From an uncultured bacterium (GTDB taxonomy: Bacteria; Bacillota_I; Bacilli_A; RFN20; CAG-826), in the NCBI GenBank assembly GCA_949293255.1, contig CASFCL010000002.1:30395-94394 (forward strand): 64,000 nt of DNA, given 5' to 3'. Below are positions 6,489-23,418 of the stretch, one piece after another. A model generated the notes under the pieces. That model saw only the letters and a program-made list of their open reading frames with translations. It was not told the origin of the DNA and did not search any database. The position numbers and the translations under genes were made by a program. Every line of letters begins with the position of its first letter. Position 1 is the first letter of the stretch.

Positions 6489-6508
6489 TAAATAGTATAT
6501 ACTATTTA
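6489..6508. promoter_or_regulatory. Perfect 20-bp palindrome over a TATACT -10 box, putative operator
   Basis: TAAATAGTATATACTATTTA, 21 nt before the ATG at 6530. Confidence 0.55.
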
Positions 6509-6529
6509 AGCAAATTTTGAGGTAACGAA

Positions 6530-7579: not shown

Positions 7580-7592
7580 TTCAATTTAAATA

Positions 7593-7934: not shown

Positions 7935-7948
7935 ATGATAACTCCTTT

Positions 7949-8419
7949 TTAATGATGATATGCTTCTTTATTTATAATTTTAAAAGCTCTATATATTTGT
8001 TCTACTAATATTAACCTTGCCATTTGATGTGGAAAAGTCATTTTACTAAAGCAAATTCTTGAATTTGCTCTTTTAATAACTTTTTCCGAAAATCCAAGAC
8101 TTCCACCTATCGCAATATTTATTGGAGAGCGACCTAAATCTATTAAATTTGATAAATTTTGAGAAAATTCTTCAGAAGTGTATTCTTTACCGTGCAAATC
8201 CATCAAAACTAAATAGTCATTTTGTTTTATTTTTTGAAGTAAGTCTTCTCCTTCTTTATCTTTAGTTGTTTTTTCGCCTAATCCTTGGATTTTTTGGTCT
8301 TTGATTTCAATTATTTTAATCTCGCAAAATTTTGAAAGTCTTTTAATATATTCATCAATTCCATCCTTAAAAAACTTTTCTTTTATTGAGCCAACAGCAA
8401 AAATATTTATTTTAATCAT
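7949..8419 (-). CDS. rlmH: 23S rRNA m3Psi1915 methyltransferase
   Basis: IGGSLG, SKMTFPHQMARLILVEQIYRAFKI...YHH. Confidence 0.95.
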   Translation of the reverse strand: MIKINIFAVGSIKEKFFKDGIDEYIKRLSKFCEIKIIEIKDQKIQGLGEKTTKDKEGEDLLQKIKQNDYLVLMDLHGKEYTSEEFSQNLSNLIDLGRSPINIAIGGSLGFSEKVIKRANSRICFSKMTFPHQMARLILVEQIYRAFKIINKEAYHH

Positions 8420-9860
8420 CTGATCTTGATGCTAATCTAGCAATATCTTCTTGGTTTGCAGGTTCATCGAATCTTCCAAATTCTTTAAAAAAATATAAGA
8501 ATGAAACACCTGTTTCACCATTTCTGTTTTTTGCAATCATTACATGAACTGTATCTGGAACTGGTTTTTTGTTAGGGTCATTAGGATTAAGAGGTTTAAC
8601 TTCTTCTGTTTTATCTTTATCCTTACCCTTTTTATTCAGAGAAATTCCTTGGCTTGTATAATAAGATTCTCTATATAAAAGTAAAACTTGGTCGGCATCT
8701 TGTTCAATAGCACCTGAAGATCTTAAATCAGCCATAGTTGGCTTTTTGCTATCTCTATCTTCAGCAGCTCTTTTAATTTGGCTTAAACATAAAATTGGAC
8801 AATTTAGTTCGCCTGCTAATTGTTTTAATCTTCTACTAAAGTAAGCAATTTTGACTTGTTCGGATTCAAATCTATGGCCACCTTCATTAATAAGACCGAT
8901 GTAATCGATCATAATCAAACCTAATTCGCCGAGATTTTCCTTTAATTTTCTACATTTTAAACATAATTCATCAATAGTTGTAGTTGATGCTGAATCAATA
9001 TACATTTTTACATCTTGCATTTCTTCAACTGCATCAGCAATCTTTAATCTATCCTTCTTATCAAGGAAACCAGTCATAATTTTCTTTAAATTTGTACTAG
9101 ATCTATTTGCAAAAAGTCTTTGCATGATAGATTTTGAATCCATTTCGAGTGAAAAAATAGCAACTGGTTTGCCACTTTTTTTAGCAGCAAGATAAGACAT
9201 ATTTAAAGCAAGTGCTGATTTACCAACAGAAGCACGAGCACCTAAAATAATCAAACTTCCAGGATTAAACCCGTTGATAATTTTATCAATATTTGGGAAT
9301 CCACAGCTTATACCTGTAATTGTATCAGCCGAACCATATGCAAGTTGAATTTGTGAACCAATAGTTTTTGCTAACTCACTAACTTTTTCAAAATCACCAA
9401 CTCTTCTTTTACTGGTAATATCGTTAATTTGCTTTTCACATTGAGAAATAAAGTCGGGAATATCTTTAATTTCTTTAGATTTGTAGAAATTTTGAATATC
9501 TCCAATTTTTATTAAAAGATTTCTTAAAATTGTTAAATCTTGTAATGATTTGATATAAAAATCAAGGTTACTAAAAGAAGTAACGTTATTTGTTAGCTCA
9601 ACTAAGTAATCAACGCCACCAACTACCTCTAATTTTTTTGTATTTTCAAGTTGTGATGTTACAGAAACAATATCAATAGGTTTATCTTGTTCTTGTAAGG
9701 CTAACATTACTTTAAAAATTTCTCTATTTTTAAAATTTGAACAATAAAAATCTTCTGGTGAAAGCGTTGTTAAAATATTGAAAGCTTGCTTTTTATCTAA
9801 TAAAGCAATACCCAAAACCGTTTTTTCAGCAAATTCGTTTTGTGGTAATTCGCCAGCCAT
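8412..9860 (-). CDS. dnaB: Replicative DNA helicase (Bacillus DnaC)
   Basis: ARASVGKS Walker A, FSLEM, DLRSSGAIEQDAD, IAKNRNG; follows rplI. Confidence 0.95.
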   Translation of the reverse strand: MAGELPQNEFAEKTVLGIALLDKKQAFNILTTLSPEDFYCSNFKNREIFKVMLALQEQDKPIDIVSVTSQLENTKKLEVVGGVDYLVELTNNVTSFSNLDFYIKSLQDLTILRNLLIKIGDIQNFYKSKEIKDIPDFISQCEKQINDITSKRRVGDFEKVSELAKTIGSQIQLAYGSADTITGISCGFPNIDKIINGFNPGSLIILGARASVGKSALALNMSYLAAKKSGKPVAIFSLEMDSKSIMQRLFANRSSTNLKKIMTGFLDKKDRLKIADAVEEMQDVKMYIDSASTTTIDELCLKCRKLKENLGELGLIMIDYIGLINEGGHRFESEQVKIAYFSRRLKQLAGELNCPILCLSQIKRAAEDRDSKKPTMADLRSSGAIEQDADQVLLLYRESYYTSQGISLNKKGKDKDKTEEVKPLNPNDPNKKPVPDTVHVMIAKNRNGETGVSFLYFFKEFGRFDEPANQEDIARLASRSDD

Positions 9861-10312
9861 TAATTTTTATCCTCCAAGACTTGAATTGTAATTGTCCCAA
9901 TAACGTTTTTATAAAGTTCAACTCTTAATTTGGTATAGCCAAAAGCATTAATTGTGAATTTATCGAGAATTTTTCTTTTATCAATTGTAATTTGATATTC
10001 ATCTTTAAGAGTTTTTTCAACTTCTTTTGTTGAAATTGTACCTGCCATTGAGCCGTTCTTTTGAGCTTTTGCAGTAAATTTAACAACAATTGTATCAAGT
10101 TGAGCTTTTATTTTTTCAGCTTCAGCTTTTAATTCACTTTGTCTTTTTTCTTCTTCGGCCTTTTGGTGATTTAATACTTTTACAGAACCTTCAGTTTTTC
10201 TTACAGCAAGTTTACGAGGAATTAAATAATTGGATGCATAGCCATCACTAACATTGATACATTCGCCTTTTTTACCTAATTTTTTTACATCTGCGAGTAA
10301 AATTACTTCCAT
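9860..10312 (-). CDS. rplI: 50S ribosomal protein L9
   Basis: MEVILLADVKKLGKKG...VSDGYASNYLIP. Confidence 0.97.
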   Translation of the reverse strand: MEVILLADVKKLGKKGECINVSDGYASNYLIPRKLAVRKTEGSVKVLNHQKAEEEKRQSELKAEAEKIKAQLDTIVVKFTAKAQKNGSMAGTISTKEVEKTLKDEYQITIDKRKILDKFTINAFGYTKLRVELYKNVIGTITIQVLEDKN

Positions 10313-10313
10313 A

Positions 10314-12344
10314 TTATTCTTCTCCTTTCACATCTTGTACGTTTTGCGCTTCAGTTAAATAGTCGTCTAAAACTTCTTTTAGTTGTTCTTCAGCTTGTCT
10401 GATACTTACATTTTTTAAAAGTGTTGCAGCTGATGAGAAATGTCCGCCACCGTTCATTTTTTCAACAAGGACTTGAACATTAATTGATCCATCGCTTCTT
10501 GCAGAAATTCTGACATCGTTTTCACCAGTTCTACCGATGACAAATGCTGCATGAATGTCTTTTAATTGCATACATTGATTTGCAACTTTTGCAAGCAATG
10601 TTCTTTCAACAACGTCATCATCATCACAACAACAATAAACAACTCCATAATAAGGCGTTTTCATTGTTCCAATAACTTTATTAATAAGTTTGTATTCTTC
10701 AAAATCATCTTTTAACATTTCATCAGCTTTACCGTTATCAGCTCCAAAATCTTTTAAAACCATACAAGCTTCAAATGTTCTATAACTTGTAGTTTTTGAT
10801 TTTAAGAATGTTGTATCTAAGAAAATTCCAGCAAGCATAAATGTTGCAATTGTTTGATTAATCTTAAAGTCTTTTGGCTTTTTGGTCATGTATCTTATAA
10901 ATTCAGCAACAATTTCACTAGCTGACGAGGCACCAGTTTCAACATATTGTAAAACAGGGCTTTCAATAAAGTCTTCACTTCTTCTATGATGATCAATAAC
11001 AACAACCTTTTTGGTTCTTTCTAAAAGATCAGGGCACATTGTAAGTCTAGGTCTAGAAACATCGACTACAATTAATAAAGTTGAGTTTTTAACTTTTTCA
11101 AGAGAGTCTCTATTAGAAACAAAAATTTCTGAATATTCTTCTTTTGAGAAAGTTCCTTTCATTGCTGTTCTTGTTTTCTTTTCAATATTTCTATCATCAA
11201 CAACAATATTTGCAGAAATTCCACATCCACGAACAATTCCATAAACACCTAAAGCTGCTCCAAGAGCATCCATATCCATATCGGTATGTCCCATAATAAG
11301 AACGTTTCCTGCTCTTTCAATTAAATTAACAAGAGAATCTGCTGTTTGACGGACGTGAACACGATTTCTTTTTGAAATTGATTCAGTTTTTCCACCAAAG
11401 AAAGCTAATTCATAACCATATTTATTAACAACTGCTTGGTCACCACCTCTAGACATCGCAATATCGACTGCATTTGATGCCATTTCATATAACTTATTAA
11501 CATCTGGGAACATGTGACCAATACCAATTGATAGGGTAGGTTGAACTTGATCATCTTTTGTGATTTGTTTTACTTTTTCAAGTAATGAGAATCCATCATT
11601 CTCTACTTCTGCTAAATCTTCATAAGTACAAACGCAAATGTAAGAGTCGTTTTTGAAGTTTTTCAAAAGCATTTTATGTTCTTTAGCGTATTGGATGATT
11701 TCGTTTTTAACTTTTGCGATTGTGTCACTAATATCATCATCATTACCACCGATATCTTGATAGTTATCAATTGTAATAATACCAACACAAGTTGCTTGAC
11801 CTTCACATTGTTTTCTCCACTTTTCACTAGTGGTAATATCTAAAAATACGAATACTCCGGCAGTTCTTAGATATTTAACATTGTAGGTATTATCTCCAAT
11901 ATTAACTGTTAATTCATATCCACCTTCACTTTTTGTGAAGTTATCAAACATTTTGTTCCATTCAAATATGTTTTGATTAACAATATCGATTCCTCTTGAA
12001 TATAAGAAATTTGATTGCCATAAGACAACTCCTTCTTTATCAACAGTAACCATGCCCATTTGGGCAAAGTTGTATGCTTCTTCAACATCGTTTCCTAAAA
12101 CTTGCTTTGTTCTTAAATCACCCTTTTTTCTTAAAGCTGAAACAGAATAAAGCATTGAGAATAAAAAGATGTTATCGATAAAAATTAAAACCAAAAATCC
12201 ATAAGCAAAATATTCTGGCTTTACTAAGTCATAAAGATCCCAAATATTAAGTAAATAGATGGTAATAAAAACTCCAACTACCACTATTTGGAAAAGAGAG
12301 ACGAATAATGTAACTAATTTATATTGATTAATTTTCTTGTTCAT
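10314..12344 (-). CDS. gdpP: c-di-AMP phosphodiesterase (TM-PAS-degenerate GGDEF-DHH-DHHA1)
   Basis: Two N-terminal TM segments, RGGDQAV, GHTDMDMDALG, IDHHR, GGGH; canonical gdpP-rplI-dnaB order. Confidence 0.93.
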   Translation of the reverse strand: MNKKINQYKLVTLFVSLFQIVVVGVFITIYLLNIWDLYDLVKPEYFAYGFLVLIFIDNIFLFSMLYSVSALRKKGDLRTKQVLGNDVEEAYNFAQMGMVTVDKEGVVLWQSNFLYSRGIDIVNQNIFEWNKMFDNFTKSEGGYELTVNIGDNTYNVKYLRTAGVFVFLDITTSEKWRKQCEGQATCVGIITIDNYQDIGGNDDDISDTIAKVKNEIIQYAKEHKMLLKNFKNDSYICVCTYEDLAEVENDGFSLLEKVKQITKDDQVQPTLSIGIGHMFPDVNKLYEMASNAVDIAMSRGGDQAVVNKYGYELAFFGGKTESISKRNRVHVRQTADSLVNLIERAGNVLIMGHTDMDMDALGAALGVYGIVRGCGISANIVVDDRNIEKKTRTAMKGTFSKEEYSEIFVSNRDSLEKVKNSTLLIVVDVSRPRLTMCPDLLERTKKVVVIDHHRRSEDFIESPVLQYVETGASSASEIVAEFIRYMTKKPKDFKINQTIATFMLAGIFLDTTFLKSKTTSYRTFEACMVLKDFGADNGKADEMLKDDFEEYKLINKVIGTMKTPYYGVVYCCCDDDDVVERTLLAKVANQCMQLKDIHAAFVIGRTGENDVRISARSDGSINVQVLVEKMNGGGHFSSAATLLKNVSIRQAEEQLKEVLDDYLTEAQNVQDVKGEE

Positions 12345-12354
12345 AAAATTTCAC

Positions 12355-12378
12355 TTTTTCTATTATACAATAGAAAAA
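12355..12378 (-). promoter_or_regulatory. gdpP promoter -10 (TGTATAAT) inside a 10-bp inverted repeat
   Basis: TTTTTCTATT-N4-AATAGAAAAA; TATAAT at 12367-12362. Confidence 0.55.
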
Positions 12379-12405
12379 ACTTAAAGTGTTAAAAAAACAG
12401 AAAAA

Positions 12406-12906
12406 TTATTTCTTCTTATTAGAGACGTTTAAATTGAACAATTGTTTTCCTTTTTTATAGATTTCTGTAATAAACTCACCGCTTTCATCGTAATCCTCTA
12501 AAAAATAAAGAAAAACTCTTTTTTGGAATTCGCTTTCGAGGTTTTCTTGTAGTTTAAATTTATTAATTGTTGTAATTTCTCCGCACACTAAAAACTCTAA
12601 AGAGCTCTTTTCATCGGCTTTTCCAATCGCATAATCTCCAAAAACATAACCTGATGTGGCGTTATATTTTAATAATATTGGAATTGAAATGAATTTAATT
12701 TGTTTAAGTTTATAAATTCCGTGATCTCTATCATACTTTACAATACTTCTAAGCCTAAAAAGAATTAATTCAGCTAACCAAGATGGCATTGAATTTGTTC
12801 CTTCTTCATAATTTTGATAGGTACGATAAGGCATATTTAATAATTGAGCTAATTCTTTTTGAGTATATCCGTTTTTTAATCTATATCTACGTAAACGACT
12901 GTTCAT
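12406..12906 (-). CDS. XRE HTH fused to a degenerate MNT-type nucleotidyltransferase domain
   Basis: TQKELAQLLNMPYRTYQNYEEG helix-turn-helix, then YVFGDYAIGKADEKSSLEFLV. Start moved to ATG 12906, 6 nt after TGTATAAT. Confidence 0.8.
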   Translation of the reverse strand: MNSRLRRYRLKNGYTQKELAQLLNMPYRTYQNYEEGTNSMPSWLAELILFRLRSIVKYDRDHGIYKLKQIKFISIPILLKYNATSGYVFGDYAIGKADEKSSLEFLVCGEITTINKFKLQENLESEFQKRVFLYFLEDYDESGEFITEIYKKGKQLFNLNVSNKKK

Positions 12907-13031
12907 AAATCGATTATACACCTATTAAGTGTGTTGTGAAAAATTAAAGTCAAAAAATTAAGGAATTTTTAGTCAAAAAAAGGCAAAAATTTTACTCATT
13001 TTTTGACACTATACAAAAATTAAAAATCATC

Positions 13032-13058
13032 AAAAACCTTGCATTTTTTAACTATTTT
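13032..13058 (+). repeat. Dispersed motif B, intergenic copy
   Basis: AAAAACCTTGCA-N6-AACTATTTT, same spacing as 39647 and 6431. Confidence 0.65.
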
Positions 13059-13249
13059 GGCCTTTTTTTGCTAATTTTTAACTAATTTTACTCACTAAAA
13101 AACTACTAATTTTTAATTACAAAAATTTAACTTTTATTTTTATAAAAAAGTCTTTATATTTTTAAGGCCTAAAGGAAAACAACATACTAAGTCGTTAAAA
13201 ACGGAAAGTAGTTTCATATTTTAGACGCCCACTTAAAAAGGAGAACGTT

Positions 13250-15631
13250 ATGATATCAGTAAAGAAAAGAGATGGAAAAATTGTTGATTTTGACTTACAC
13301 AAAATTGAATCCGCTATCGAAAGAGCATTTGTTGCTTGCGGAAAAGTTTACAATTCACAAATTATCGAACTTATCGCTTTAAAAGCAAGTTCAAACTTCA
13401 ACACAAAAATTGAAAATAATGTAGTATCAGTCGAAGATATTCAAGATGCTGTTGAAATTTCTTTAATTCAAGCAGGCTATGTTGATGTTGCTAAAGCCTA
13501 TATTAAATATAGACAACAACACGAAGCTTTAAGACAAATTAAACAAACAGAATTAGATTATAAGAAAACAGTCGACAACTACTTAAATATTAATGACTGG
13601 AGAGTTAAAGAAAATTCCACTGTTACTTATTCAGTTGGTGGTTTAATTCTTTCTAACAGCGGCGCTGTCACTGCTAACTATTGGTTAAGCGAAGTCTACG
13701 ATAAAGAAATCGCTGATGCACATAGAAATGCTGATATCCATCTTCATGATTTAAGTATGCTTACTGGCTACTGTGCTGGTTGGTCATTAAAGCAATTAAT
13801 TCAAGAAGGTCTTGGTGGAGTTACAGGAAAGATCACTTCTTCCCCTGCTTCTCACCTTTCAACCCTTTGCAATCAAATGGTTAACTTCTTAGGAATTATG
13901 CAAAATGAATGGGCTGGTGCTCAAGCTTTCTCCTCATTTGATACATATCTTGCTCCATTTGTTAAAGTTGATCACTTAACATACAAAGAAGTTAAACAAT
14001 GTATTCAATCATTTATCTTCGGTGTTAACACTCCATCAAGACGGGGAACTCAATCACCATTTACAAACATTACATTAGATTGGACAGTTCCAAATGATTT
14101 AGCTGAATTAAATTGTATTGTTGGTGGAAAAGAACAACCATTCAAATATAAAGATTGTAAAAAAGAAATGGATATGATCAATAAAGCATTCATCGAAGTT
14201 ATGATCGAAGGTGATGCTAATGGAAGAGGCTTCCAATATCCAATCCCAACATACTCAATTACAAAAGATTTTGATTGGTCAGATACTGAAAATAATAGAT
14301 TATTATTCGAAATGACCGCAAAATACGGTACTCCATACTTCTCAAACTATATCAATTCAGATATGCAACCAAGCGATGTTAGAAGTATGTGCTGTAGATT
14401 AAGATTAGATCTTAGAGAATTAAGAAAGAAATCAGGCGGCTTCTTTGGAAGCGGTGAATCTACCGGTAGTATTGGTGTTGTTACAATCAATATGCCAAGA
14501 ATTGCTTACCTTTCAACAGATGAAAATGATTTCTATGCAAGATTAGAAAAATTAATGAACATTGCAGCAAGATCATTAAAAATTAAACGTGATTTTGTTA
14601 CAAAACTTCTCGAAGCAGGATTATATCCATATACAAAGAGATATTTAGGAACATTCAACAACCACTTCTCCACTATCGGATTAGTTGGTATGAATGAAGC
14701 TTGTTTAAATGCTAGATGGATTAAAGAAGATTTAACTCATGAAAAAGCTGAAGAATTCACAGTAAATGTTCTTAACTTCATGAGAACAAAATTATCTGAC
14801 TATCAAGTTCAATATGGAGACTTATATAACCTTGAAGCTACTCCAGCAGAATCAACATCTTATCGTTTAGCAAAGCATGATAAAGAAAGATATCCAGACA
14901 TTATTACTGCTAGTATGAATGGAGAAACTCCATATTATACAAACTCAAGCCACTTACCAGTTGGTTATACAGAAGATTTATTTGAAGCTCTTGATAAAGA
15001 AGATCAATTCCAAACATTATACACATCAGGTACAGTCTTCCACTGTTTCTTAGGTCAAAAATTACCAGATTGGAAATCATGTATGAATCTTGTAAGAAAG
15101 ATTGCTGAAAATTACAAACTTCCTTACTACACCATGTCTCCAACATATTCTGTCTGTAAAAACCATGGTTACCTTGAAGGCGAACAAAAAGTTTGTCCAC
15201 ACTGTGGTTCAGCAACTGAAGTCTACTCAAGAATTACTGGTTACTATAGACCTATTCAAAACCGGAACGATGGTAAAACTCAAGAATTCAAAGATAGAAA
15301 AGAATACGTTCTTGGATCATCACACTTAAAAGAAAGAAAAGTTGAAAAAGAAGTTGAAACTCTAAACATCATTCAATCTCAAAAAGCTGATGTTTCAGAA
15401 TTAATGCTCTTCACAACAAAGACATGTCCAAACTGTAAATTAGCAAAATCAATCCTCGATAAAGCAGGAATCCCATATAAAGTCATCGATGCTGAAGAAA
15501 ATAAAGACGTCGTTCAAGCATATGGAATTAAAAAAGCTCCAACACTCTTAGTTCCTGATAACGATGGATACGATTATTACGAAAACGCATCATTAATTAA
15601 AGGCTTTGTCGAAAGTCACAAAGCCATGTAA
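13250..15631 (+). CDS. nrdD: Anaerobic (class III) ribonucleoside-triphosphate reductase with N-terminal ATP cone and C-terminal glutaredoxin/NrdH-like domain
   Basis: ATP cone KKRDGKIVDFD, RSMCCRL, EATPAE, Zn site CKNH...CPHC, glycyl-radical RITGYYRP, C-terminal TCPNC redoxin; SD AAGGAG. Confidence 0.95.
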   Translation: MISVKKRDGKIVDFDLHKIESAIERAFVACGKVYNSQIIELIALKASSNFNTKIENNVVSVEDIQDAVEISLIQAGYVDVAKAYIKYRQQHEALRQIKQTELDYKKTVDNYLNINDWRVKENSTVTYSVGGLILSNSGAVTANYWLSEVYDKEIADAHRNADIHLHDLSMLTGYCAGWSLKQLIQEGLGGVTGKITSSPASHLSTLCNQMVNFLGIMQNEWAGAQAFSSFDTYLAPFVKVDHLTYKEVKQCIQSFIFGVNTPSRRGTQSPFTNITLDWTVPNDLAELNCIVGGKEQPFKYKDCKKEMDMINKAFIEVMIEGDANGRGFQYPIPTYSITKDFDWSDTENNRLLFEMTAKYGTPYFSNYINSDMQPSDVRSMCCRLRLDLRELRKKSGGFFGSGESTGSIGVVTINMPRIAYLSTDENDFYARLEKLMNIAARSLKIKRDFVTKLLEAGLYPYTKRYLGTFNNHFSTIGLVGMNEACLNARWIKEDLTHEKAEEFTVNVLNFMRTKLSDYQVQYGDLYNLEATPAESTSYRLAKHDKERYPDIITASMNGETPYYTNSSHLPVGYTEDLFEALDKEDQFQTLYTSGTVFHCFLGQKLPDWKSCMNLVRKIAENYKLPYYTMSPTYSVCKNHGYLEGEQKVCPHCGSATEVYSRITGYYRPIQNRNDGKTQEFKDRKEYVLGSSHLKERKVEKEVETLNIIQSQKADVSELMLFTTKTCPNCKLAKSILDKAGIPYKVIDAEENKDVVQAYGIKKAPTLLVPDNDGYDYYENASLIKGFVESHKAM

Positions 15632-15636
15632 ATCTT

Positions 15637-16560
15637 ATGATTAAAGATTTAATAGTAATAGGAGGTGGGCCTTCAGGGCTCACCTCTTGCTTATATGCCT
15701 TAAGAGCCGGTAAATCTGTATTACTTCTTGAAAAAGAAAATATTGGTGGTCAAATTTCAATCTCCCCAAGAGTTGAAAATTTCCCATCAATCAAAAAAAT
15801 CTCCGGGATGGAGCTCGCTAATAACTTATTTGAACAAATTAGCGATCTTGGAGTTGAATTTGAACTTGATTCTTGTAATAAAATTACAAAAACCGACCAT
15901 AATACCTTCTGGATTGAAGGCGATTTTTCCTGCTATGAAGCAAAAGCTGTAATTGTTGCTACCGGTGTTAAACATCGCCACATCAACGTTCCAAAAGAAC
16001 AAGAATTAATTGGTCATGGTGTCTCATATTGTGCTGTTTGTGATGGTGCCTTTTATAAAGGTGAAGATGTTTGCTTAATTGGAGATGCAAACACTGCATT
16101 ACAATATGCAATTTTGCTTTCTGGATATTGTAATAAAGTTTATTTAAATACGCTTTTCGATAAATTCTTTGGTGATGATATTTTAGTAAATGAAGTAAAA
16201 GCAAAACCTAATATTATCATTCAACAAAACTTAAATTTAGAAGAATTTTATACCGATGAAAAAGGTGAATTAAACGGATTAAGATTTAAAGATACAAAGA
16301 CTCAACAAGATTATAAATTTGATGTAAAAGGTTGCTTTATTGCAATCGGTCAAGTACCTGATAATCAAAAATTTGCCGATCTAGTCGAATTAAATCCAAA
16401 CGGATTCATCATTACAAACGAAAATATGCAAACAAAGACTCCAGGAATATTTGCTTCAGGTGATTGTAGAGAAAAAGCAGTTAGACAATTAACTACTGCT
16501 TGTGGAGATGGAGCTATTGCTGCTGTTTACGCTTGTAGATATATTGATTCATTAAAATAA
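15637..16560 (+). CDS. trxB: Thioredoxin reductase-type FAD oxidoreductase
   Basis: IGGGPSGL, GVSYCAVCDG, GIFASGD...RQLTTACGDGA. Confidence 0.9.
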   Translation: MIKDLIVIGGGPSGLTSCLYALRAGKSVLLLEKENIGGQISISPRVENFPSIKKISGMELANNLFEQISDLGVEFELDSCNKITKTDHNTFWIEGDFSCYEAKAVIVATGVKHRHINVPKEQELIGHGVSYCAVCDGAFYKGEDVCLIGDANTALQYAILLSGYCNKVYLNTLFDKFFGDDILVNEVKAKPNIIIQQNLNLEEFYTDEKGELNGLRFKDTKTQQDYKFDVKGCFIAIGQVPDNQKFADLVELNPNGFIITNENMQTKTPGIFASGDCREKAVRQLTTACGDGAIAAVYACRYIDSLK

Positions 16561-16561
16561 C

Positions 16562-16587
16562 AAAATGGTCGAAAGACCATTTTTTTT
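16562..16587. terminator. Bidirectional intrinsic terminator between trxB and the DUF1848 gene
   Basis: AAAATGGTC-GAAA-GACCATTTT plus T-run. Confidence 0.85.
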
Positions 16588-17476
16588 AATCGTGTCTTTC
16601 TACTATTTTTGAGGTAGATTTTACTCTTCCTATAAGTAAAGAAGAATTATCAAAGTGATTCATTAAGTTTTTAGAAATTGAATGTTCATCAAAATTTGCA
16701 TAACAATATTTACAATAATTTGAACAAGTATTGTATGCACCAATATCCACCACTTGCACACAATTACAAAACTTATTTTTTCTAGCGTTCCGTTTTGGAA
16801 ATTCTTTTCCTGTTAAATGTTTAATAAATTCCTTTCCTAAACATTCGCCTTTTATAAAACCATATTCAAAAAAATCATTTTCTTCTGCACAAGTTTGAAC
16901 TAATTTTCCGTTTTCATCGGCAATTTTTGAAAATTCTATGCCTATTTTCTTATAGTCTTCTTTCGTAAAAGGAATGATATTCAAATCTTTCATATTTTTC
17001 TTTACGTTTTTATAAATATCAATAAAAGAAACGATGATTGTTTTTATGTTTTTATCAAGTTGAGAGCACAATTTTTTAAAAGCTCTTATATGATAATCAA
17101 CATTATATTTTTTAATAAGAAAAACAGGATCATATCGAACAAAAACTCTATTTGGACCTAAAAGTCTAGCTAATCTATTTGTACATTCGATTATATCTAT
17201 TTTGTTTTTTACATTAGGCTCGATATCTTTTTGATAACCTGTAATTGTTACAAAAAATAAAGTTGGTTTTACCATAAATCGATACATATAATTTTCTATA
17301 TTTCGAGGATCTTTTGTTGAAAAAACATATATATCTACATCTTCAAAATAAATTCTTGAAACCATTTCTTTATTAAAAGGGTTTTCAACATCAACAAAAC
17401 CTTCATTTAATCTATTGATTAGCCAAGGTGTGAAATATTTAACAATATCTGTTCTTCCACTTATATGTAAAATCAT
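16586..17476 (-). CDS. DUF1848 family protein (radical-SAM-like CxxxCxxC)
   Basis: MILHISGRTDIVKYFTPWL...VENPFN, RYDPV, DIGAYNTCSNYCKYCYAN. Confidence 0.88.
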   Translation of the reverse strand: MILHISGRTDIVKYFTPWLINRLNEGFVDVENPFNKEMVSRIYFEDVDIYVFSTKDPRNIENYMYRFMVKPTLFFVTITGYQKDIEPNVKNKIDIIECTNRLARLLGPNRVFVRYDPVFLIKKYNVDYHIRAFKKLCSQLDKNIKTIIVSFIDIYKNVKKNMKDLNIIPFTKEDYKKIGIEFSKIADENGKLVQTCAEENDFFEYGFIKGECLGKEFIKHLTGKEFPKRNARKNKFCNCVQVVDIGAYNTCSNYCKYCYANFDEHSISKNLMNHFDNSSLLIGRVKSTSKIVERHD

Positions 17477-20400
17477 TTCTTTAAATCTATTTTTCCTTGA
17501 TTTGTGGTGAAATCTTTATAAAAAGCAAGGATGTAATCAATCATTTCTTTAATTTTTATTGAACTTTGTAAAGAAATTGAGCTCGCACCAAAAGCATAAC
17601 CGACTGATTTAATCATATCTTCTAAAGTTATTTCTCTTTGAAGTTTTAAAATTTCAATCATTGCATTTTTAACTTCAACAATTGGAAGTTGTTCTAAAGA
17701 TCTTTGATAAATAGATGACGTTCTATAATAATCCATAGTGTCTAAATTTATTGATAAAGGATAATAAAAATACCCATTAATTTCTGCAACTTTTTTACTT
17801 TTTACATATCTAAGTTGAATATTAAATAGTCTTTTAACTTTTGGACCAACTCTTTCAAGTCCGAAGAAGTCTTTAAATCTTTGAAGTAAGAGATTTTCTG
17901 AAATTGGACCTTCATAATTAATTACGTTTTCTAAACTTGTAACTAATTCAGGGTACATTCTTTCAACTTGATAGTTCTCATAATTGAACGAATTGAAAAC
18001 TTTATATTTTAAATAATCTTTCTTTCTATGAGATTCATTGGTTTCTGCTTTTTCAAAATTGACATCATCTACTTCAATTTCATCAACGTTATTATCTAAA
18101 TTTTCTAAATTCTCTAAAGCTTTTAAGATATCTTTTATGACTTGATCCTTGTTTTTAAAGTAATCAATTGTAAAAATACGAATTATTTTCCATTTTAATC
18201 TAGTTAAAATTAAAGAATGAACATAGTTTCTATCTCTACATGTAGGGGTGCTTAAATATGTATCACTATCACAAATAATACCTAAAATATACTTTCCTTC
18301 ACTGTTTTTGATACATAAATCAATTTTAAATTTAGAATCTCCGACATTAATATCAGATTCAATTCCTAATTTTGCTAAATCCTCTTTAATGAAATTTTGT
18401 ACACCAATTTCGCTAATAATTTGATTCTTATTTTCTATTTCTAAAGACTCTAATCCTTGTTCAGCATATAAAAGGAATGATTTTAAAACTGCTGCTCCTT
18501 TATTTTTAACTCTTCTTGCATCAATATCTGAAGATTTAATTGAAGAATAAATTATCATTTCTTTTCTAGCTCTAGTTATTGCAACATTTAATCTTCTTTC
18601 ACCTTTATCTAAAGAAAGTGGGCCAAAATTATGTAAAAATTTGCCTTCAGGATTATAACCAAAACCAACAGAGAAAATAATTACATCTCTTTCATCACCT
18701 TGAACGTTTTCTAAATTCTTAATAAATAAAGGATCTTCTTCATTATTAATTAATTCTAAATATTTTGGATTATCCATTACTTCTTTTTGTAATTCTTTAT
18801 AAACAAATTCTTGTTGTTTGATGTTAAAACAAACTATACCGATGCTTTGTTTACTTAAAATTGGGTCATCTAATCTATGAATAATTTCTTTAACAATTGC
18901 TTTAGCTTCAACTTTATTAATTCCTGATTCATAAACACCATCTTTTAAATAATTAAAGGAAACTTTTGATAATTTATTATCAGGAGATGGGAAAGTATAA
19001 AGATTATGATCATAGAAATAATTATTTGAGAAAGCAATTAATGACTCATGAGCAGATCTATAGTGCCATAAAAGTCTATTTCTCTTCATTTTTAAAGTTA
19101 TACAATCATCTAAAAGCGACTCTAAATCTTCATAAACAATGCTTTCATCATATTCATCCAACGATGTAATGTTTGCTTTAAAGAAATTTGTTGGTGGCAT
19201 TTGTTGAGGATCACCTGCAACTATTAAGCTGTTTCCTCTAGAAATTGCACCAATTGCTTCACATGTAGGAATTTGACTTGCTTCATCAAAAATAACGATA
19301 TCGAACTTTTTAGTATCAAGACTTAAATATTGAGCAGCTGATAAAGGAGACATGAAGAAGCAAGGACAGAATGTTCTAATTAAATCTTCATAATCTTCTA
19401 AAATTCCTCTAATAGTTTGTCCTCTTCCACCATTTTTAATTAATTTTCTTAAACTATAAATTTTACTTGATTCAGCATATCTAACATTAGAGACTGGGAA
19501 GTCTTGAGTTAAAATGTTTGCGGTTTTTTCGATAACAAGAGTTGAAAAATTACTAAGTAGCTCATCATATTTTTTAATTGCTTCATTAAAGAGGATGCCA
19601 TTGAATTCATTATAATAAGGATCTTTAAAATAATTGTTTAATATGACTTTATAAACAGAAACTAAAAATCTATTTTTTAGTTCTTCTACACTAAATATAC
19701 CAACTCTATATTTTTGAATTATGTATTTATAAAGACCTAAATCTTCTAGTTCCTTAAGCACACGATTAAAAATAATAAGGTTATAGATTTCGTTCTTTTC
19801 GTCTAATGCCTTATTGAGTGAAGCAATGCATGACCCCATATATGAGGAATCTATTTCGTCAAAATCAGTTAAGAAAACGAAATCATATTTGTTTGAAAAT
19901 TCCGCCTCATAATCTCGAACTTTAGATATTTCTTGAATCATTATTTCAATATTATTTTTGACATTTTCCCCGTCTTTTAAATCAAAAATCTCGCAGAACC
20001 TTAATTTATTTTCTAAAACCTCGTTTTCTGGCATGTCTTTTAAAAGAAGGTCTACCTTATTTAATAAATCTAATCCATTGTCAAATCTAACCAAAAGATT
20101 TTTAAAATTAACTTCAGTTAAATCTTCTGAAATTCTTTCAAATTGTTCTATATATTGAGTTTTTAAGTTTATAGATTGTTCTTCTTCTTTTATTAAATTT
20201 AATAAGAAAAGATACTTTTCAATCTCTTTATTTGTTAACTTATGTTCTTTAATTTCTAAATATGCTTTAAGTTCTCTTTTGATATTGTGCTTAGCAAAAA
20301 ATTTAGTAAAAACATTTCCAGATTTAAGAGTTTCGATAACTTCTTTAATATAATCTTCGTCAATATTTAAAACAGATTTTTTAAATGTTTTAAATAAATA

Positions 20401-23262
20401 AGCGTAGTCTTCACTTAATTTAACGCCTTGGATGATAGTTTCTTTAATTGTTTCATAGTTTCTAACAAAATCTTGTTCAAAAATGTTATTAAGAACACAT
20501 TTATTTTGCATCAAAATTTCTAATATTTTGTTAAAAAACATTACGTTTTTGCGGGTCTTTTTAAAAGTAAAGTTAAATTCACCAAGAAAACTAGTTAAAC
20601 GAATATAATAATTTATCAACGCATCTCTTAAATCAGTAACCAAAGAGAAAAACTTATCATTAATCTTTGTATTATCCAAAATTAGGAGTCCCCTATATGG
20701 ATTTTCACAAAGTTTACCTCTTTGAGATTCTATTTCTTTTAATGTATTTAATCCGTCTACTATTTCTTTTATCCTTTTGTCGTCAAGATGAAGGGCTGCA
20801 AAATAATTGTCACTTTCTTTAAAATCAAACTCTCTTAATTCTTCATATCTTAATACTGCATCGTGTAAAGAATAGATGTACTTCCTCTCTGTAGTTTTGT
20901 TAATAAGTTGATTTAAATATTTCTTTTTTTCTTCTAAATCATTTAAATGGTCATCAAATTCTTTTGGAGAGACAATTCTTTCTAATTCCATAGATTGCTC
21001 AATTTGATTTAAGAAGTCTCTTTTATTTGATTTGCTCGAATGAAGTTCTAAACAGAAGTTACCTAAATGGATTTCATCAATTCTTTTTTTAACAACTTCA
21101 AGAGCAACCATTTTTTCAGCAACAAATAAGACTGATTTTTTGTTATAAAGTGCATTAACAATCATGTTGACGATGGTTTGAGATTTTCCGGTTCCTGGAG
21201 GACCATCTAAAACAAAACTTTCACCTTTTCCACAATCTAAAATAGCTTTTACTTGGGATGAATCAGCACCTAAAGGTATTGCAACATCATCAATTTGAAT
21301 ATTTTTATCGATATCTTTTAAATCAGTATCTTCTTCACTATTTCTATATGGTTTTCCTTCAACAAGACATTTAATAATGTCGTTTTTTAATAGTTCTTCT
21401 TTTCTATTAGAAATATCGTTCCAAATAATATAATTAGCAAAATATAAAATTGATAAATAACATTTATCGTCTTCTACTGTTATTTCACAATCTTCTGATG
21501 ATTTTGATCTAATAAGATTAATAATTGTGTTGTAATCTCTTTCTAAATTTTCTTTATTAACTGAATAAATTTCGTCTAAAGAGATGAGGAAATTTTGTTT
21601 AAGATACTCAAAAAGTGTCGTATTTATCGTAATTGCATCAAAGTTTAAATCTAATTCATAACTGTTATTTGAACCTTTAACTTTAGAAAAAGCTGGTACT
21701 AAAAATAAAGGTGCATAAAAATCTCTTTTACTTCCTCGAGGAGTAAATCTTACAAGACCTAAACTTAAATAAAGAGCGTTCGAACCGGTTTCTTCTACTA
21801 TTCCAACCGCTTTTCTACATAAGCTTCTATAATCATCAACTGATCCAGTAATTGCAAATTTGCCGTTTCTTTCATATTCACGGATTTCAATTAATGAAAC
21901 TTTTTGAATATCGTCGAGATTATTATCAATTTTTGTTGGTACAACTTTTAATTTTTCACTATTAGTAATACTTTCAATAAAGGTTCTTATTGTGCTAATA
22001 AAGATATATGGAGATTTTGAATTAAACTTAAAATTAATTAATCTATTTCTTAAAGAAAGGTCTAATAATTTCCTGCTCCAATAGAAAAACTTATCGTTTT
22101 CCTGCTTCTTTGAGGTAAAAATTACCCCATTATCCGCTGTTGACTTAACTTCAAAATCAACATCGTGCATGATAGGAAAATCGATTATTTCTTCATTTTG
22201 ATCGTTATATTTTATTTCTGGTATTGGTCGATAAATATATTGATGACATTTAAAAATATCAATTGCTTCAAAATATCCATGATAATTTCTTAAATGATTT
22301 CTTGCGGCTTCGTTTGCACCTCTAAATGTTGCCTCTTCCTTATCGTTTGTTAAAAGTGTGCATTCAACTAATTCTATTTGAGTGTTATTGTATGCTGATA
22401 AGTTATAAATATAAGAAGGTGACTCTAAAAAGTACGATTCAAACGTATTTTCACTTAAAAAGCATCCCGCAAAAGCATGACCTTCTTTAATAATCAAAAT
22501 TGGTCTTAATCCAACTGATTCTAAACAAGAACAATATAAAATTGCTAAATCTAAACAAGTTCCTTTTCCATTTATAACGACGTCTTTAGGAAGTCTAACT
22601 TTTTGAAATTCATTAAATGAGGCGGGCGGTAAAACATAAGAGATACCTTTTCTTTTAATAGCTTTAAAAATTGCCATCATTTCTTCTCTAACACTATCAA
22701 TATCGTTAGAAAGATATCCATAAAAAGCAGTTTCTTTGTTTCTTATTCCTTTTAATTCATAAAAAGCACTGTTGATAATTTTTCCAACAATATCATTATT
22801 TGGAGTAACAAATGAACTTAAAATACAAACATCTTCTTTTATTGAAGAAATTTCATTTATTGGGTTTAAAGTGAATAAAATTTGTTCGCTTAAAAGTTCT
22901 TCATAAGTTTTTTCGTTATATAGTTTTACAGTTATATTTACTGGAACTTCTTCGGTTAATTTATATAATTCTTTAACATTTAAATTTATTTTTATTCCTT
23001 CAGAAATATATGTTGTCGATCTTTTAAAAATTGAGGCAATATTTATGTTTTCAATTTGAATAATATCGTTATTGCTTTCAAAAGAAATTACACAATTAGA
23101 ATAATCATCATCTGATTCATTTGTAATAATTATTTTCTCAATTAAAGAATATGGAGTTGTTTTGATTGTTGAGTTTTTTTGCTTATAAAAACAATCAGTT
23201 TGATAATAAACGTAGTTATATTCTTTTCGGTGTATGAATTCTAATTTGATCCCTTTCTCCAT
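17473..23262 (-). CDS. Giant DUF4011 / SF1 helicase / Vsr-like nuclease / DUF3320 protein (Hhe-like) with N-terminal transglutaminase-like domain
   Basis: GTCLD...GHAFAG, WSRKLLDLSLRNRLINF, GPPGTGKSQT, DEASQ, WHYRS, NLENVQGDERD, RRLNVAITRA. Start moved to ATG 23262 (6 nt after TGCTATAAT). Confidence 0.88.
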   Translation of the reverse strand: MEKGIKLEFIHRKEYNYVYYQTDCFYKQKNSTIKTTPYSLIEKIIITNESDDDYSNCVISFESNNDIIQIENINIASIFKRSTTYISEGIKINLNVKELYKLTEEVPVNITVKLYNEKTYEELLSEQILFTLNPINEISSIKEDVCILSSFVTPNNDIVGKIINSAFYELKGIRNKETAFYGYLSNDIDSVREEMMAIFKAIKRKGISYVLPPASFNEFQKVRLPKDVVINGKGTCLDLAILYCSCLESVGLRPILIIKEGHAFAGCFLSENTFESYFLESPSYIYNLSAYNNTQIELVECTLLTNDKEEATFRGANEAARNHLRNYHGYFEAIDIFKCHQYIYRPIPEIKYNDQNEEIIDFPIMHDVDFEVKSTADNGVIFTSKKQENDKFFYWSRKLLDLSLRNRLINFKFNSKSPYIFISTIRTFIESITNSEKLKVVPTKIDNNLDDIQKVSLIEIREYERNGKFAITGSVDDYRSLCRKAVGIVEETGSNALYLSLGLVRFTPRGSKRDFYAPLFLVPAFSKVKGSNNSYELDLNFDAITINTTLFEYLKQNFLISLDEIYSVNKENLERDYNTIINLIRSKSSEDCEITVEDDKCYLSILYFANYIIWNDISNRKEELLKNDIIKCLVEGKPYRNSEEDTDLKDIDKNIQIDDVAIPLGADSSQVKAILDCGKGESFVLDGPPGTGKSQTIVNMIVNALYNKKSVLFVAEKMVALEVVKKRIDEIHLGNFCLELHSSKSNKRDFLNQIEQSMELERIVSPKEFDDHLNDLEEKKKYLNQLINKTTERKYIYSLHDAVLRYEELREFDFKESDNYFAALHLDDKRIKEIVDGLNTLKEIESQRGKLCENPYRGLLILDNTKINDKFFSLVTDLRDALINYYIRLTSFLGEFNFTFKKTRKNVMFFNKILEILMQNKCVLNNIFEQDFVRNYETIKETIIQGVKLSEDYAYLFKTFKKSVLNIDEDYIKEVIETLKSGNVFTKFFAKHNIKRELKAYLEIKEHKLTNKEIEKYLFLLNLIKEEEQSINLKTQYIEQFERISEDLTEVNFKNLLVRFDNGLDLLNKVDLLLKDMPENEVLENKLRFCEIFDLKDGENVKNNIEIMIQEISKVRDYEAEFSNKYDFVFLTDFDEIDSSYMGSCIASLNKALDEKNEIYNLIIFNRVLKELEDLGLYKYIIQKYRVGIFSVEELKNRFLVSVYKVILNNYFKDPYYNEFNGILFNEAIKKYDELLSNFSTLVIEKTANILTQDFPVSNVRYAESSKIYSLRKLIKNGGRGQTIRGILEDYEDLIRTFCPCFFMSPLSAAQYLSLDTKKFDIVIFDEASQIPTCEAIGAISRGNSLIVAGDPQQMPPTNFFKANITSLDEYDESIVYEDLESLLDDCITLKMKRNRLLWHYRSAHESLIAFSNNYFYDHNLYTFPSPDNKLSKVSFNYLKDGVYESGINKVEAKAIVKEIIHRLDDPILSKQSIGIVCFNIKQQEFVYKELQKEVMDNPKYLELINNEEDPLFIKNLENVQGDERDVIIFSVGFGYNPEGKFLHNFGPLSLDKGERRLNVAITRARKEMIIYSSIKSSDIDARRVKNKGAAVLKSFLLYAEQGLESLEIENKNQIISEIGVQNFIKEDLAKLGIESDINVGDSKFKIDLCIKNSEGKYILGIICDSDTYLSTPTCRDRNYVHSLILTRLKWKIIRIFTIDYFKNKDQVIKDILKALENLENLDNNVDEIEVDDVNFEKAETNESHRKKDYLKYKVFNSFNYENYQVERMYPELVTSLENVINYEGPISENLLLQRFKDFFGLERVGPKVKRLFNIQLRYVKSKKVAEINGYFYYPLSINLDTMDYYRTSSIYQRSLEQLPIVEVKNAMIEILKLQREITLEDMIKSVGYAFGASSISLQSSIKIKEMIDYILAFYKDFTTNQGKIDLKK

Positions 23263-23373
23263 AAAAAAATTATAGCACAAGTGTATTTTCTATTATTACA
23301 CATTTTATATTAAATTTTTATAAAAATTTTAATTTTATCCACGATTAGCGCGTTTTTTTGGGACATAAAAAAT

Positions 23374-23398
23374 AAAAAAAGCCCTAATTTCTTAGGAC
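23374..23398 (-). terminator. Intrinsic terminator after rpsR
   Basis: GTCCTAA-GAAA-TTAGGGC followed by T7 on the minus strand. Confidence 0.8.
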
Positions 23399-23418
23399 CT
23401 TATACACTTCTATTTCAA

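What the first reader, a model, noticed from the sequence alone, without database searches (positions are those of the whole stretch)
16586..23262. Hhe-like giant helicase translationally coupled to a DUF1848 radical-SAM-like gene
The ~1929-aa protein has a Cys/His transglutaminase-like domain (GTCLD...GHAFAG, about 22460-22580), DUF4011, a split SF1 helicase, a Vsr-like domain and DUF3320. DUF4011-helicase-Vsr proteins are known single-gene antiphage systems (Hhe). Here the TGA stop overlaps the ATG (17473-17476) of a DUF1848 gene with CxxxCxxC (16702-16728). The pair interrupts housekeeping DNA between trxB and rpsR, has its own leaderless promoter and shares a terminator with trxB. I do not know this pairing as a described system. 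It could couple radical chemistry on modified or damaged DNA with a helicase effector.
Basis: partly seen in the sequence, partly recalled or inferred. Interest (0 to 1): 0.62.

Follow-up and report, generated by a model that had tools for sequence, protein, structure and literature searches.

The report
Known anti-phage helicase, chance DUF1848 neighbour
The giant gene belongs to an already described family of one-protein anti-phage helicase-nucleases (ProA, the "Prometheus" system), and the iron-sulfur gene of unknown function that overlaps its stop codon sits there in this one species only, so the two are not a conserved two-gene system.

Summary
A 1929-aa gene (17473-23262, minus strand) and a 296-aa DUF1848 gene (16586-17476, minus strand) overlap by ATGA. 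All the named domains and motifs are present.

The interpretation mostly fails. The helicase matches NCBIfam "anti-phage protein ProA" end to end, at 1413 bits against a cut-off of 1500. It also matches PADLOC PDC-S37 (936 bits) better than Hhe (465 bits). ProA is the validated single-protein Prometheus system. The N-terminal beta-sandwich plus transglutaminase-like domain recurs in the roughly 1,930-aa relatives.

The pairing with DUF1848 is confined to this species:
- None of 95 DUF1848 loci from other species has the helicase nearby.
- None of about 47 ProA-like loci has DUF1848 nearby.
- Twenty-three other genomes hold both genes, and they are never adjacent.

The closest sister species has ProA at the same rpsR-proximal site, but an iron-dependent alcohol dehydrogenase (Fe-ADH) gene stands where DUF1848 stands here.

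Both genes are under purifying selection between strains and are probably co-transcribed from a conserved leaderless-type promoter. A young functional link cannot be excluded, but nothing supports one.

This scan has met ProA-family genes before on other DNA.

In passing: CGG codons in DUF1848 and nrdD sit where relatives have TGG, which fits CGG being read as Trp.

The parts
23269..23277 (-). Extended -10 promoter element TGcTATAAT. It ends 6 nt before the helicase ATG, and no Shine-Dalgarno sequence is present, so a leaderless mRNA is inferred.
   Evidence: Sequence read. The sister species L144 has TGtTATAAT 7 nt before its ATG.
17473..23262 (-). ProA/Prometheus-like helicase-nuclease gene, 1929 aa plus a TGA stop
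   Evidence: ORF. NCBIfam NF058533 ProA scores 1413 bits against a cut-off of 1500, aligning residues 35-1894 to model positions 6-1902 of 1903. PADLOC scores PDC-S37 at 936 bits and Hhe at 465 bits. dN/dS is 0.088 against a conspecific strain.
22858..23262 (-). N-terminal beta-sandwich, residues about 1-135
   Evidence: AlphaFold2 model at pLDDT 86.6. Foldseek matches the beta-sandwiches of factor XIIIa and of PapD-type chaperones.
22228..22830 (-). Transglutaminase/PNGase-like core, residues about 145-345. The putative triad is Cys236 (GTCLD, 22549-22563), His262 (GHAFAG, 22465-22482) and Glu300 (LVECT, 22357-22371).
   Evidence: Pfam DUF553 or Transglut_core hits in 16 and 14 of 24 homologues. 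Foldseek matches TG3, TG2, PNGase and putative cysteine proteases. The three residues are kept or lost together across homologues.
21601..22071 (-). DUF4011 domain
   Evidence: Pfam E 8e-20. The same place was found by the genome search.
18565..21204 (-). Split SF1 (Upf1/DNA2-like) helicase core, with about 630 residues inserted between motif I and motif II. Motifs present: GPPGTGKS (21181-21204), DEASQ (19273-19287), GDPQQ (19201-19215), VQGDERD (18685-18705), ITRAR (18565-18579).
   Evidence: Pfam AAA_11, AAA_12 and AAA_19.
18115..18390 (-). MTES_1575 (Vsr-like, PD-(D/E)xK-type) nuclease domain
   Evidence: Pfam E 1.7e-19, 70.1 bits against a cut-off of 38.2.
17833..17946 (-). DUF3320 tail domain
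   Evidence: Pfam 27.3 bits against a cut-off of 25.
17473..17476 (-). ATGA overlap of the helicase stop codon and the DUF1848 start codon. Translational coupling is inferred.
   Evidence: No good Shine-Dalgarno sequence lies at the right distance upstream.
16586..17476 (-). DUF1848 gene, 296 aa. It encodes a predicted alpha/beta-barrel Fe-S enzyme with a C-terminal CxxxCxxC (Cys251/255/258, 16703-16726) and four further invariant Cys (196, 212, 237, 239).
   Evidence: Pfam E 6.9e-79. The AlphaFold2 model has pLDDT 91.9. Foldseek finds only weak generic TIM-barrel matches, with the radical SAM enzyme NifB at rank 34. dN/dS is 0.083.
16790..16792 (-). The only CGG codon of DUF1848, at residue 229. 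At least 90% of 40 homologues have Trp at this position.
16562..16583 (.). Hairpin between the convergent trxB-like and DUF1848 genes. It scores as a terminator on both strands.
23378..23401 (-). Terminator of rpsR. It separates the ribosomal-protein operon from the helicase gene.

Best explanation
The large gene encodes a ProA/Prometheus-type single-protein anti-phage helicase-nuclease. Its parts, in order:
- an N-terminal beta-sandwich plus transglutaminase-like domain (a sensor or protease-like function is inferred)
- DUF4011
- an intact Upf1/DNA2-like SF1 motor with a large insertion
- a Vsr-like MTES_1575 nuclease
- DUF3320

By analogy with ProA and Hhe, it most likely acts alone: it recognises a nucleic-acid structure produced during infection, translocates along it and cuts it. 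This mechanism is inferred, not shown.

DUF1848 is a separate accessory gene that moves independently. It encodes an Fe-S, probably radical-SAM-like, enzyme of unknown substrate. In its closest relatives it stands alone in ever-changing neighbourhoods.

In this one species DUF1848 occupies the slot between ProA and the trxB terminator. Its ATG overlaps the ProA stop codon, so it is probably transcribed from the ProA promoter and translated by coupling. The juxtaposition is a recent, lineage-specific gene-order event, an operon capture, and not a conserved defence system.
For: Family assignment:
- NCBIfam ProA matches end to end, at 1413 bits against a cut-off of 1500.
- PADLOC scores PDC-S37 at 936 bits and Hhe at 465 bits.
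- ProA of P. aeruginosa is described as an experimentally validated single-protein system in which all four domains are essential (PMC13700489, citing van den Berg et al. 2024).
- The roughly 1,930-aa architecture is widespread: 5368 database proteins match at E <= 1e-30, and most of the 120 listed cover 97-100% of the query.

The pairing is not conserved:
- Among 40 relatives, 9 have both genes and none has them adjacent.
- In a 400-genome sample of the phylum, 17 genomes including this one have both, and only this one has them adjacent. The nearest other case is about 6.5 kb apart and divergent.
- Fourteen DUF1848 loci from relatives share no conserved neighbour.
- Eighty DUF1848 loci from 80 species have no helicase within 10 kb and no recurrent neighbour.
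- The next-closest DUF1848 (61% identity) lies between CNNM and Fe-ADH genes.
- Seventeen helicase loci from relatives, three loci of the closest database homologues and about 27 metagenome loci all lack DUF1848.

Sister species (lysS 84%, nrdD 88% identical): it has ProA (49% identical) at the same site after rpsR, followed by Fe-ADH and then trxB-nrdD. No DUF1848 remnant is detectable.

The pair itself is found only in contigs about 97% identical to the window. Both genes are intact and under purifying selection (omega 0.088 and 0.083).
Against: - The 4-nt overlap, the lack of an internal promoter or terminator, and purifying selection on both genes are what a functional operon would also show.
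- Other DUF1848 subfamilies are reported next to defence-type genes. One is UG25 methylase-reverse transcriptases (PMC9226505), and PADLOC carries an 'RTasDUF1848' model that this protein hits at 111 bits. Earlier notes of this scan also report methyltransferase-helicase fusions; I did not check those.
- DUF4011 helicase-nucleases do occur in operons with NrdG-like radical-SAM proteins. One case in a relative was confirmed here.
- The samples are large but biased towards gut Bacilli. Other phyla were not sampled for adjacency.
Confidence: 0.8

Rival explanations
1. Nascent two-gene system. In this species DUF1848 has been recruited as a working partner of ProA. It might act by radical chemistry on modified or damaged nucleic acid that the helicase exposes, or by repairing self-damage caused by ProA.
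For: - ATGA overlap and a single promoter and terminator for both genes.
- Both genes are under purifying selection across strains that differ by about 2.8% in nucleotide sequence.
- Other DUF1848 subfamilies are defence-linked.
- A related helicase operon in a relative contains a radical-SAM activase.
Against: - No second lineage shows the pairing: 0 of 95 DUF1848 loci and 0 of about 47 helicase loci.
- The sister species keeps ProA at the same site without DUF1848.
- The close relatives of this DUF1848 stand alone.
- ProA is reported to work as a single protein.
Confidence: 0.1
2. The helicase is a housekeeping genome-maintenance enzyme of this lineage, for example in R-loop or repair processing, rather than a defence gene. 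DUF1848 would be a DNA/RNA repair enzyme sharing that role.
For: - The helicase is frequent in the genus (16 of 24 congeners).
- It sits among core genes and is kept at the same site in two species.
- Prometheus is described as related to eukaryotic enzymes that act on R-loops.
Against: - Congeneric copies lie at many different sites and are only 30-49% identical, while core proteins are 70-88% identical.
- Eight of 24 congeners lack it.
- This presence-absence pattern and fast divergence are typical of defence genes.
- The family prototype was validated as anti-phage.
Confidence: 0.07
3. DUF1848 and Fe-ADH once stood together behind ProA in the common ancestor and were then lost differentially. 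On this reading the link to ProA is older than it looks.
For: In a congener, the DUF1848 that is 61% identical to this one lies directly upstream of an Fe-ADH. That Fe-ADH is 74% identical to the one behind ProA in the sister species.
Against: - That congener has DUF1848 and Fe-ADH without any helicase nearby.
- No DUF1848 remnant is found in the sister species.
- Even if the scenario is true, loss of DUF1848 with retention of ProA argues against dependence.
Confidence: 0.15

Closest known systems
Prometheus / ProA (NCBIfam NF058533 'anti-phage protein ProA'; van den Berg et al. 2024, Cell Host Microbe 32:1427, as described in PMC13700489)
   Same: The alignment is end to end (residues 35-1894 to model positions 6-1902 of 1903). 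The domain order DUF4011, DNA2/Upf1-like helicase with insertion, MTES_1575 nuclease, DUF3320 is the same. Relatives have the same single-gene habit.
   Different: The score of 1413 bits is 6% below NCBI's equivalog cut-off of 1500. This copy has a gene overlapping its stop codon. Activity is untested. The primary paper was not held, so I could not compare sequences or read its mechanism.
PADLOC candidate PDC-S37
   Same: This is the best PADLOC hit, at 936 bits, covering residues 396-1916 against model positions 8-1532 of 1550.
   Different: The model lacks the roughly 390-residue N-terminal beta-sandwich plus transglutaminase-like domain. PDC-S37 is a computational candidate without a published test that I could find.
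Hhe (Gao et al. 2020; NCBIfam NF042953, PADLOC Hhe)
   Same: Hhe is also a single polypeptide with DUF4011, an SF1 helicase and a Vsr-like nuclease. It is active against lambda, T3, T7 and PhiV-1, and a nuclease-site mutant (E1731A) abolishes defence (10.1101/2022.06.16.496414).
   Different: The match is much weaker: 675 bits against a cut-off of 2000, covering mainly residues 993-1753, and 465 bits in PADLOC. Hhe is a sister family, not this family.
DUF1848 partner of UG25 methylase-reverse transcriptases (Mestre et al. 2022, PMC9226505; PADLOC 'RTasDUF1848')
   Same: It belongs to the same Pfam family (PF08902). The PADLOC model hits at 111 bits.
   Different: No reverse transcriptase or methyltransferase-like gene is present here. 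The protein scores far higher on the general Pfam model (266 bits). Its closest relatives stand alone in variable contexts.
DUF4011 helicase operons with a Ser/Thr kinase, a zinc-ribbon-FHA protein and an NrdG-like radical-SAM activase
   Same: These also combine a DUF4011 helicase-nuclease with an Fe-S radical-SAM-type gene. One instance in a same-order relative (G037, locus L029) was confirmed here.
   Different: The radical-SAM protein there is of the Fer4_12/PF04055 NrdG type, not DUF1848. That helicase lacks the transglutaminase-like N-terminus. That operon has several further genes that are absent here.

Membership tests
ProA / Prometheus (NF058533) | Whole-protein score above NCBI's curated equivalog cut-off (1500 bits) | tested here: not met
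   1413 bits, aligned end to end. The protein is a family-level homologue just under the naming threshold, so I call it ProA-like rather than an equivalog.
ProA / Prometheus (NF058533) | Four-domain single polypeptide: DUF4011, DNA2/Upf1-like helicase with an insertion, nuclease, DUF3320 | tested here: met
   All four domains are over Pfam cut-offs. Walker A, motif II, motif III and motifs V/VI are present.
ProA / Prometheus (NF058533) | Works as a single gene, with no conserved partner | tested here: met
   About 47 homologous loci have variable flanks and no recurrent downstream gene.
ProA / Prometheus (NF058533) | Confers resistance to phage | not testable with these tools
   This needs plaque assays in a laboratory host.
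Hhe (NF042953 / PADLOC Hhe) | Score above the curated cut-off (2000 bits) with full-length alignment | tested here: not met
   675 bits, with the best stretch at residues 993-1753 only. PADLOC Hhe scores 465 bits against 936 for PDC-S37.
Radical SAM superfamily (for the DUF1848 protein) | CxxxCxxC motif that binds a [4Fe-4S] cluster | tested here: met
   C251-x3-C255-x2-C258 is invariant in 18 and in 40 homologues. The motif lies near the C-terminus, not the N-terminus as in canonical members.
Radical SAM superfamily (for the DUF1848 protein) | Partial or full TIM-barrel fold that clearly resembles solved radical SAM enzymes | tested here: inconclusive
   The confident model (pLDDT 91.9) gives only weak generic TIM-barrel matches (best E 5e-4, TM about 0.3). 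NifB is at rank 34. A profile search of PDB sequences found nothing.
Radical SAM superfamily (for the DUF1848 protein) | SAM binding and reductive cleavage to the 5'-deoxyadenosyl radical | not testable with these tools
   This needs anaerobic reconstitution and a SAM-cleavage assay.
Proposed 'helicase + DUF1848' two-gene system | Adjacency conserved across unrelated lineages | tested here: not met
   0 of 95 DUF1848 loci, 0 of about 47 helicase loci and 0 of 23 other genomes with both genes show it.
Transglutaminase-like (papain-fold) domain | Fold and a Cys-His-Asp/Glu triad | tested here: met
   Foldseek matches TG2, TG3, FXIIIa and PNGase. Sub-threshold Pfam hits occur in 16 of 24 homologues. 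C236, H262 and E300 are present here. The three are lost together in a subset of homologues, including the sister-species orthologue.

The most novel reading that the evidence does not exclude
In this one gut Bacilli species a stand-alone DUF1848 Fe-S enzyme has recently been captured into the ProA transcription unit and now modulates it. It might remove or install a nucleic-acid modification that licenses or restrains the helicase-nuclease. That would be a two-gene defence system caught at birth.
Probability: 0.08. Interest if true: 0.55.

Novelty: new member of a known kind. Interest (0 to 1): 0.17.

Why it matters
This report removes a false lead. A tight 4-nt overlap and a shared promoter look like a system, but comparison with about 140 related loci shows a species-specific juxtaposition.

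It also places the giant gene in a named and validated family, ProA/Prometheus, and documents two things about that family. The N-terminal beta-sandwich plus transglutaminase-like module recurs in the roughly 1,930-aa relatives examined. Its Cys-His-Glu triad is kept in some lineages and lost as a unit in others, which bears on whether that domain is catalytic or only a sensor.

DUF1848 remains an uncharacterised and widespread Fe-S enzyme with seven invariant cysteines, and it deserves biochemistry in its own right. If the pair were functional after all, it would be a rare example of a defence gene acquiring an accessory enzyme very recently.

Tried and rejected
- **PDB sequence search.** A profile of DUF1848 found no meaningful hit.
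- **Foldseek with the DUF1848 model.** It returned only generic TIM barrels, so the fold does not name a function.
- **Conserved neighbours of DUF1848.** Clustering ORFs within three genes of DUF1848 in 80 loci found no recurrent partner. The most frequent cluster appeared 7 times.
- **P. aeruginosa 'DUF4011 plus radical SAM' core flank** (PMC10250203). I considered it as an independent instance of the pairing. I could not fetch that genome.
- **G387.** DUF1848 lies about 6.5 kb from a DUF4011 helicase. I rejected this as an operon because the genes are divergent, other genes lie between them, and the two genes are 40 kb apart in its congener G037.
- **Literature on 'ProA' and 'PDC-S37'.** The primary Prometheus paper is not held. 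I rely on its description in PMC13700489.
- **First metagenome scan.** The scan with the 16-sequence N-terminal alignment failed because no stretch was conserved enough. I repeated it with six sequences.
- **Sampling another phylum.** Centring the genome search on a Bacteroidales locus failed because that genome is not held.
- **Internal promoter for DUF1848.** Promoter-like matches in the region number 26, fewer than the 44 expected from shuffles, and none is well placed.

Full report
**What is there.** Two ORFs lie head to tail on the minus strand. The first is a 1929-aa gene whose ATG is at 23262 and whose stop is at 17475-17473. The second is a 296-aa gene at 17476-16586. The sequence aagaaATGAtt shows that the stop of the first overlaps the start of the second by four bases.

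Upstream, rpsR ends with its own terminator at 23401-23378. An extended -10 element, TGcTATAAT (23277-23269), ends six bases before the ATG, and there is no Shine-Dalgarno sequence. The orthologous gene of the sister species has TGtTATAAT seven bases before its ATG.

Downstream, a 9-bp-stem hairpin at 16562-16583 sits in the 25-bp gap between DUF1848 and the convergent trxB-like gene. It scores as a terminator on both strands.

**The large protein.** Pfam finds DUF4011, a split AAA_11/AAA_12 SF1 core, MTES_1575, DUF3320 and a weak transglutaminase-like hit. All the usual helicase motifs are present.

PADLOC's best model is the candidate PDC-S37, at 936 bits over residues 396-1916. Hhe scores 465 bits.

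NCBIfam gives the decisive name. 'Anti-phage protein ProA' (NF058533) aligns end to end, residues 35-1894 to model positions 6-1902 of 1903. The score is 1413 bits against a cut-off of 1500. Hhe reaches 675 bits against a cut-off of 2000.

ProA is the protein of the 'Prometheus' system. PMC13700489 cites van den Berg et al. 2024 (reference traced) and describes it as follows:
- It is a recently reported single-protein defence system validated in Pseudomonas aeruginosa.
- It has four domains, all of them essential.
- It is related to eukaryotic antiviral enzymes that act on R-loops.

I could not read the primary paper.

**The N-terminal domain.** An AlphaFold2 model of residues 1-400 (24-sequence alignment, pLDDT 86.6) shows a beta-sandwich followed by an alpha/beta core. 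Its best PDB matches are transglutaminases 3 and 2, factor XIIIa, PNGase and two bacterial putative cysteine proteases. Of the 24 homologous N-termini, 16 hit Pfam DUF553 and 14 hit Transglut_core, each below threshold.

Cys236, His262 and Glu300 are present here. Across 16 homologues the three are kept together or replaced together. The sister-species orthologue has Ile, Tyr and Asp at these positions.

Most of the 120 best database homologues cover 97-100% of the query, so this N-terminal module is common in the roughly 1,930-aa form of the family.

**DUF1848.** The Pfam match is strong (E 6.9e-79). Seven cysteines are invariant in alignments of 18 and of 40 sequences: 196, 212, 237, 239 and the C251-x3-C255-x2-C258 motif. 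This suggests a radical-SAM-type cluster plus an auxiliary cluster.

The AlphaFold2 model is confident (pLDDT 91.9). Foldseek nevertheless finds only weak generic TIM-barrel similarity, with the radical SAM enzyme NifB at rank 34. A profile search of PDB sequences finds nothing. 'Radical-SAM-like' is therefore plausible but not proven.

The only literature link I found is its association with UG25 methylase-reverse transcriptases (PMC9226505). That link is mirrored by PADLOC's RTasDUF1848 model, which this protein hits at 111 bits.

**Is the pair a system?** I tested adjacency from both sides.

*Whole genomes.*
- Among 40 relatives, 16 besides this genome have DUF1848 and 24 have DUF4011.
- Nine of them have both genes. 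In each case the genes lie on different contigs or 40-330 kb apart.
- In a 400-genome sample of the phylum, 52 genomes have DUF1848 and 163 have DUF4011.
- Seventeen of these, including this one, have both. Only this genome has them adjacent.
- The nearest other case, G387, has them about 6.5 kb apart and divergent. Its congener has them 40 kb apart.
- Across the two samples, 23 different other genomes hold both genes.

*From the DUF1848 side.*
- Fourteen loci from relatives share no conserved neighbour.
- Eighty loci from 80 other species, with up to 10 kb of flank on each side, contain no helicase homologue and no recurrent neighbour.
- The closest DUF1848 outside the species (61% identity) lies between CNNM and Fe-ADH genes.

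*From the helicase side.*
- Seventeen loci from relatives lack DUF1848.
- The three closest database homologues lack it.
- About 27 metagenome loci with downstream sequence lack it.
- The genes that do follow the helicase in relatives are unrelated to one another: NUDIX, DegV, FolD, GyrI-like, a kinase and unknowns.

*Where the pair does occur.* It was found only in six metagenome contigs with the same synteny. These are about 97% identical to the window in nucleotide sequence, so they are strains of the same species.

**History of the locus.** In eight congeners the order is dusB-lysS-rpsF-ssb-rpsR-gdpP-rplI-dnaB. The HTH-nrdD-trxB-like block lies elsewhere in those genomes, with nrdD 70-81% identical to the window's copy, so it is a vertically inherited core block.

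In this species about 11 kb lies between rpsR and gdpP. It holds ProA, DUF1848, the trxB-like gene, nrdD and the HTH gene.

The closest relative found is a metagenomic sister species. Its identities to the window are lysS 84%, nrdD 88%, rpsR 89%, the trxB-like gene 68% and ProA only 49%. It has the same rearranged locus, but an Fe-ADH gene with its own 200-bp upstream region stands in place of DUF1848. No DUF1848 remnant is detectable.

That Fe-ADH is 74% identical to the one that follows the 61%-identical DUF1848 in another congener. Two histories fit this. The slot may have been filled independently in the two species, or an ancestral DUF1848-Fe-ADH insert may have been lost differentially. 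Either way, ProA is retained without DUF1848.

The low ProA identity between species, beside 84-89% identical neighbours, is the usual signature of a defence gene. So are the 30-49% identity and the varied locations of ProA among congeners.

**What remains in favour of a link.** Both genes are intact and under purifying selection between strains. Omega is 0.088 for ProA and 0.083 for DUF1848, against 0.05-0.18 for lysS, nrdD and the trxB-like gene. The two genes very probably share one transcript.

Helicase-nucleases of this superfamily can sit in operons with radical-SAM proteins. In relative G037 a DUF4011 helicase that lacks the transglutaminase-like domain is followed by four genes:
- a Ser/Thr kinase
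- a 454-aa protein with no Pfam family
- a zinc-ribbon-FHA protein
- an NrdG-like Fer4_12/Radical_SAM protein

That is a different radical-SAM family in a different operon. I give a young functional coupling about 10%.

**Verdict.** The interpretation as a new two-gene system is not supported. The helicase is a new member of the known ProA/Prometheus kind, and DUF1848 is an independent gene of unknown function that happens to be its neighbour in one species.

**Earlier notes of this scan** had met ProA-family genes on other DNA. They supplied the 'Prometheus' lead, which I verified in PMC13700489.

Noticed in passing
window 16790-16792 (DUF1848 residue 229); 14042-14044 and 15263-15265 (nrdD residues 265 and 672): All three in-frame CGG codons of these genes fall where homologues have Trp. 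At both nrdD sites, nine relatives and a conspecific strain (about 97% identical) have TGG. At the DUF1848 site, at least 90% of 40 close homologues have Trp. ProA and the trxB-like gene contain no CGG. This fits CGG being read as Trp in this species. Heterologous expression would therefore need recoding.
   Followed up: partly
window 12406-23262, compared with loci L122-L134, L136-L143 and L144: The HTH-nrdD-trxB-like core block, which lies elsewhere in eight congeners, sits here and in the sister species between rpsR and gdpP together with ProA. This is an approximately 11-kb rearrangement of the otherwise conserved rpsF-ssb-rpsR-gdpP-rplI-dnaB region.
   Followed up: partly
L029 (G037:C2:58000-74000), 5906-15613: A same-order relative carries a DUF4011 helicase-nuclease of 1813 aa without the transglutaminase-like N-terminus. 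Four overlapping genes follow it: a Ser/Thr kinase, a 454-aa protein with no Pfam family, a zinc-ribbon-FHA protein and an NrdG-like radical-SAM protein. A genuine nrdG-nrdD pair lies divergently upstream.
   Followed up: partly
alignment A3, columns around window residues 236, 262 and 300: The putative Cys-His-Glu triad of the ProA transglutaminase-like domain is kept in 10 of 16 homologues. It is replaced at all three positions together in several others, including the syntenic sister-species orthologue. This suggests active and inactive versions of the domain.
   Followed up: partly
L018 4157-5035 and L021 3987-4871: In two congeners a 292-294-aa protein with no Pfam family lies 6-15 bp downstream of ProA on the same strand. 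It is conserved between the two genomes. It could be a lineage-specific ProA neighbour.
   Followed up: no
L056 9588-9950 and five other DUF1848 loci: A roughly 120-aa protein (MTKEEILFDKLSKSKFRSRFHL...) is among the most frequent neighbours of DUF1848, but it appears in only 6 of about 75 loci. It was not annotated.
   Followed up: no
L036 (ERZ16268052 scaffold_7102), 2-2181 and 7309-9747: In one conspecific metagenome contig the ProA gene is called in two pieces and gdpP is fused to rplI. This is probably caused by assembly indels rather than real pseudogenes.
   Followed up: no
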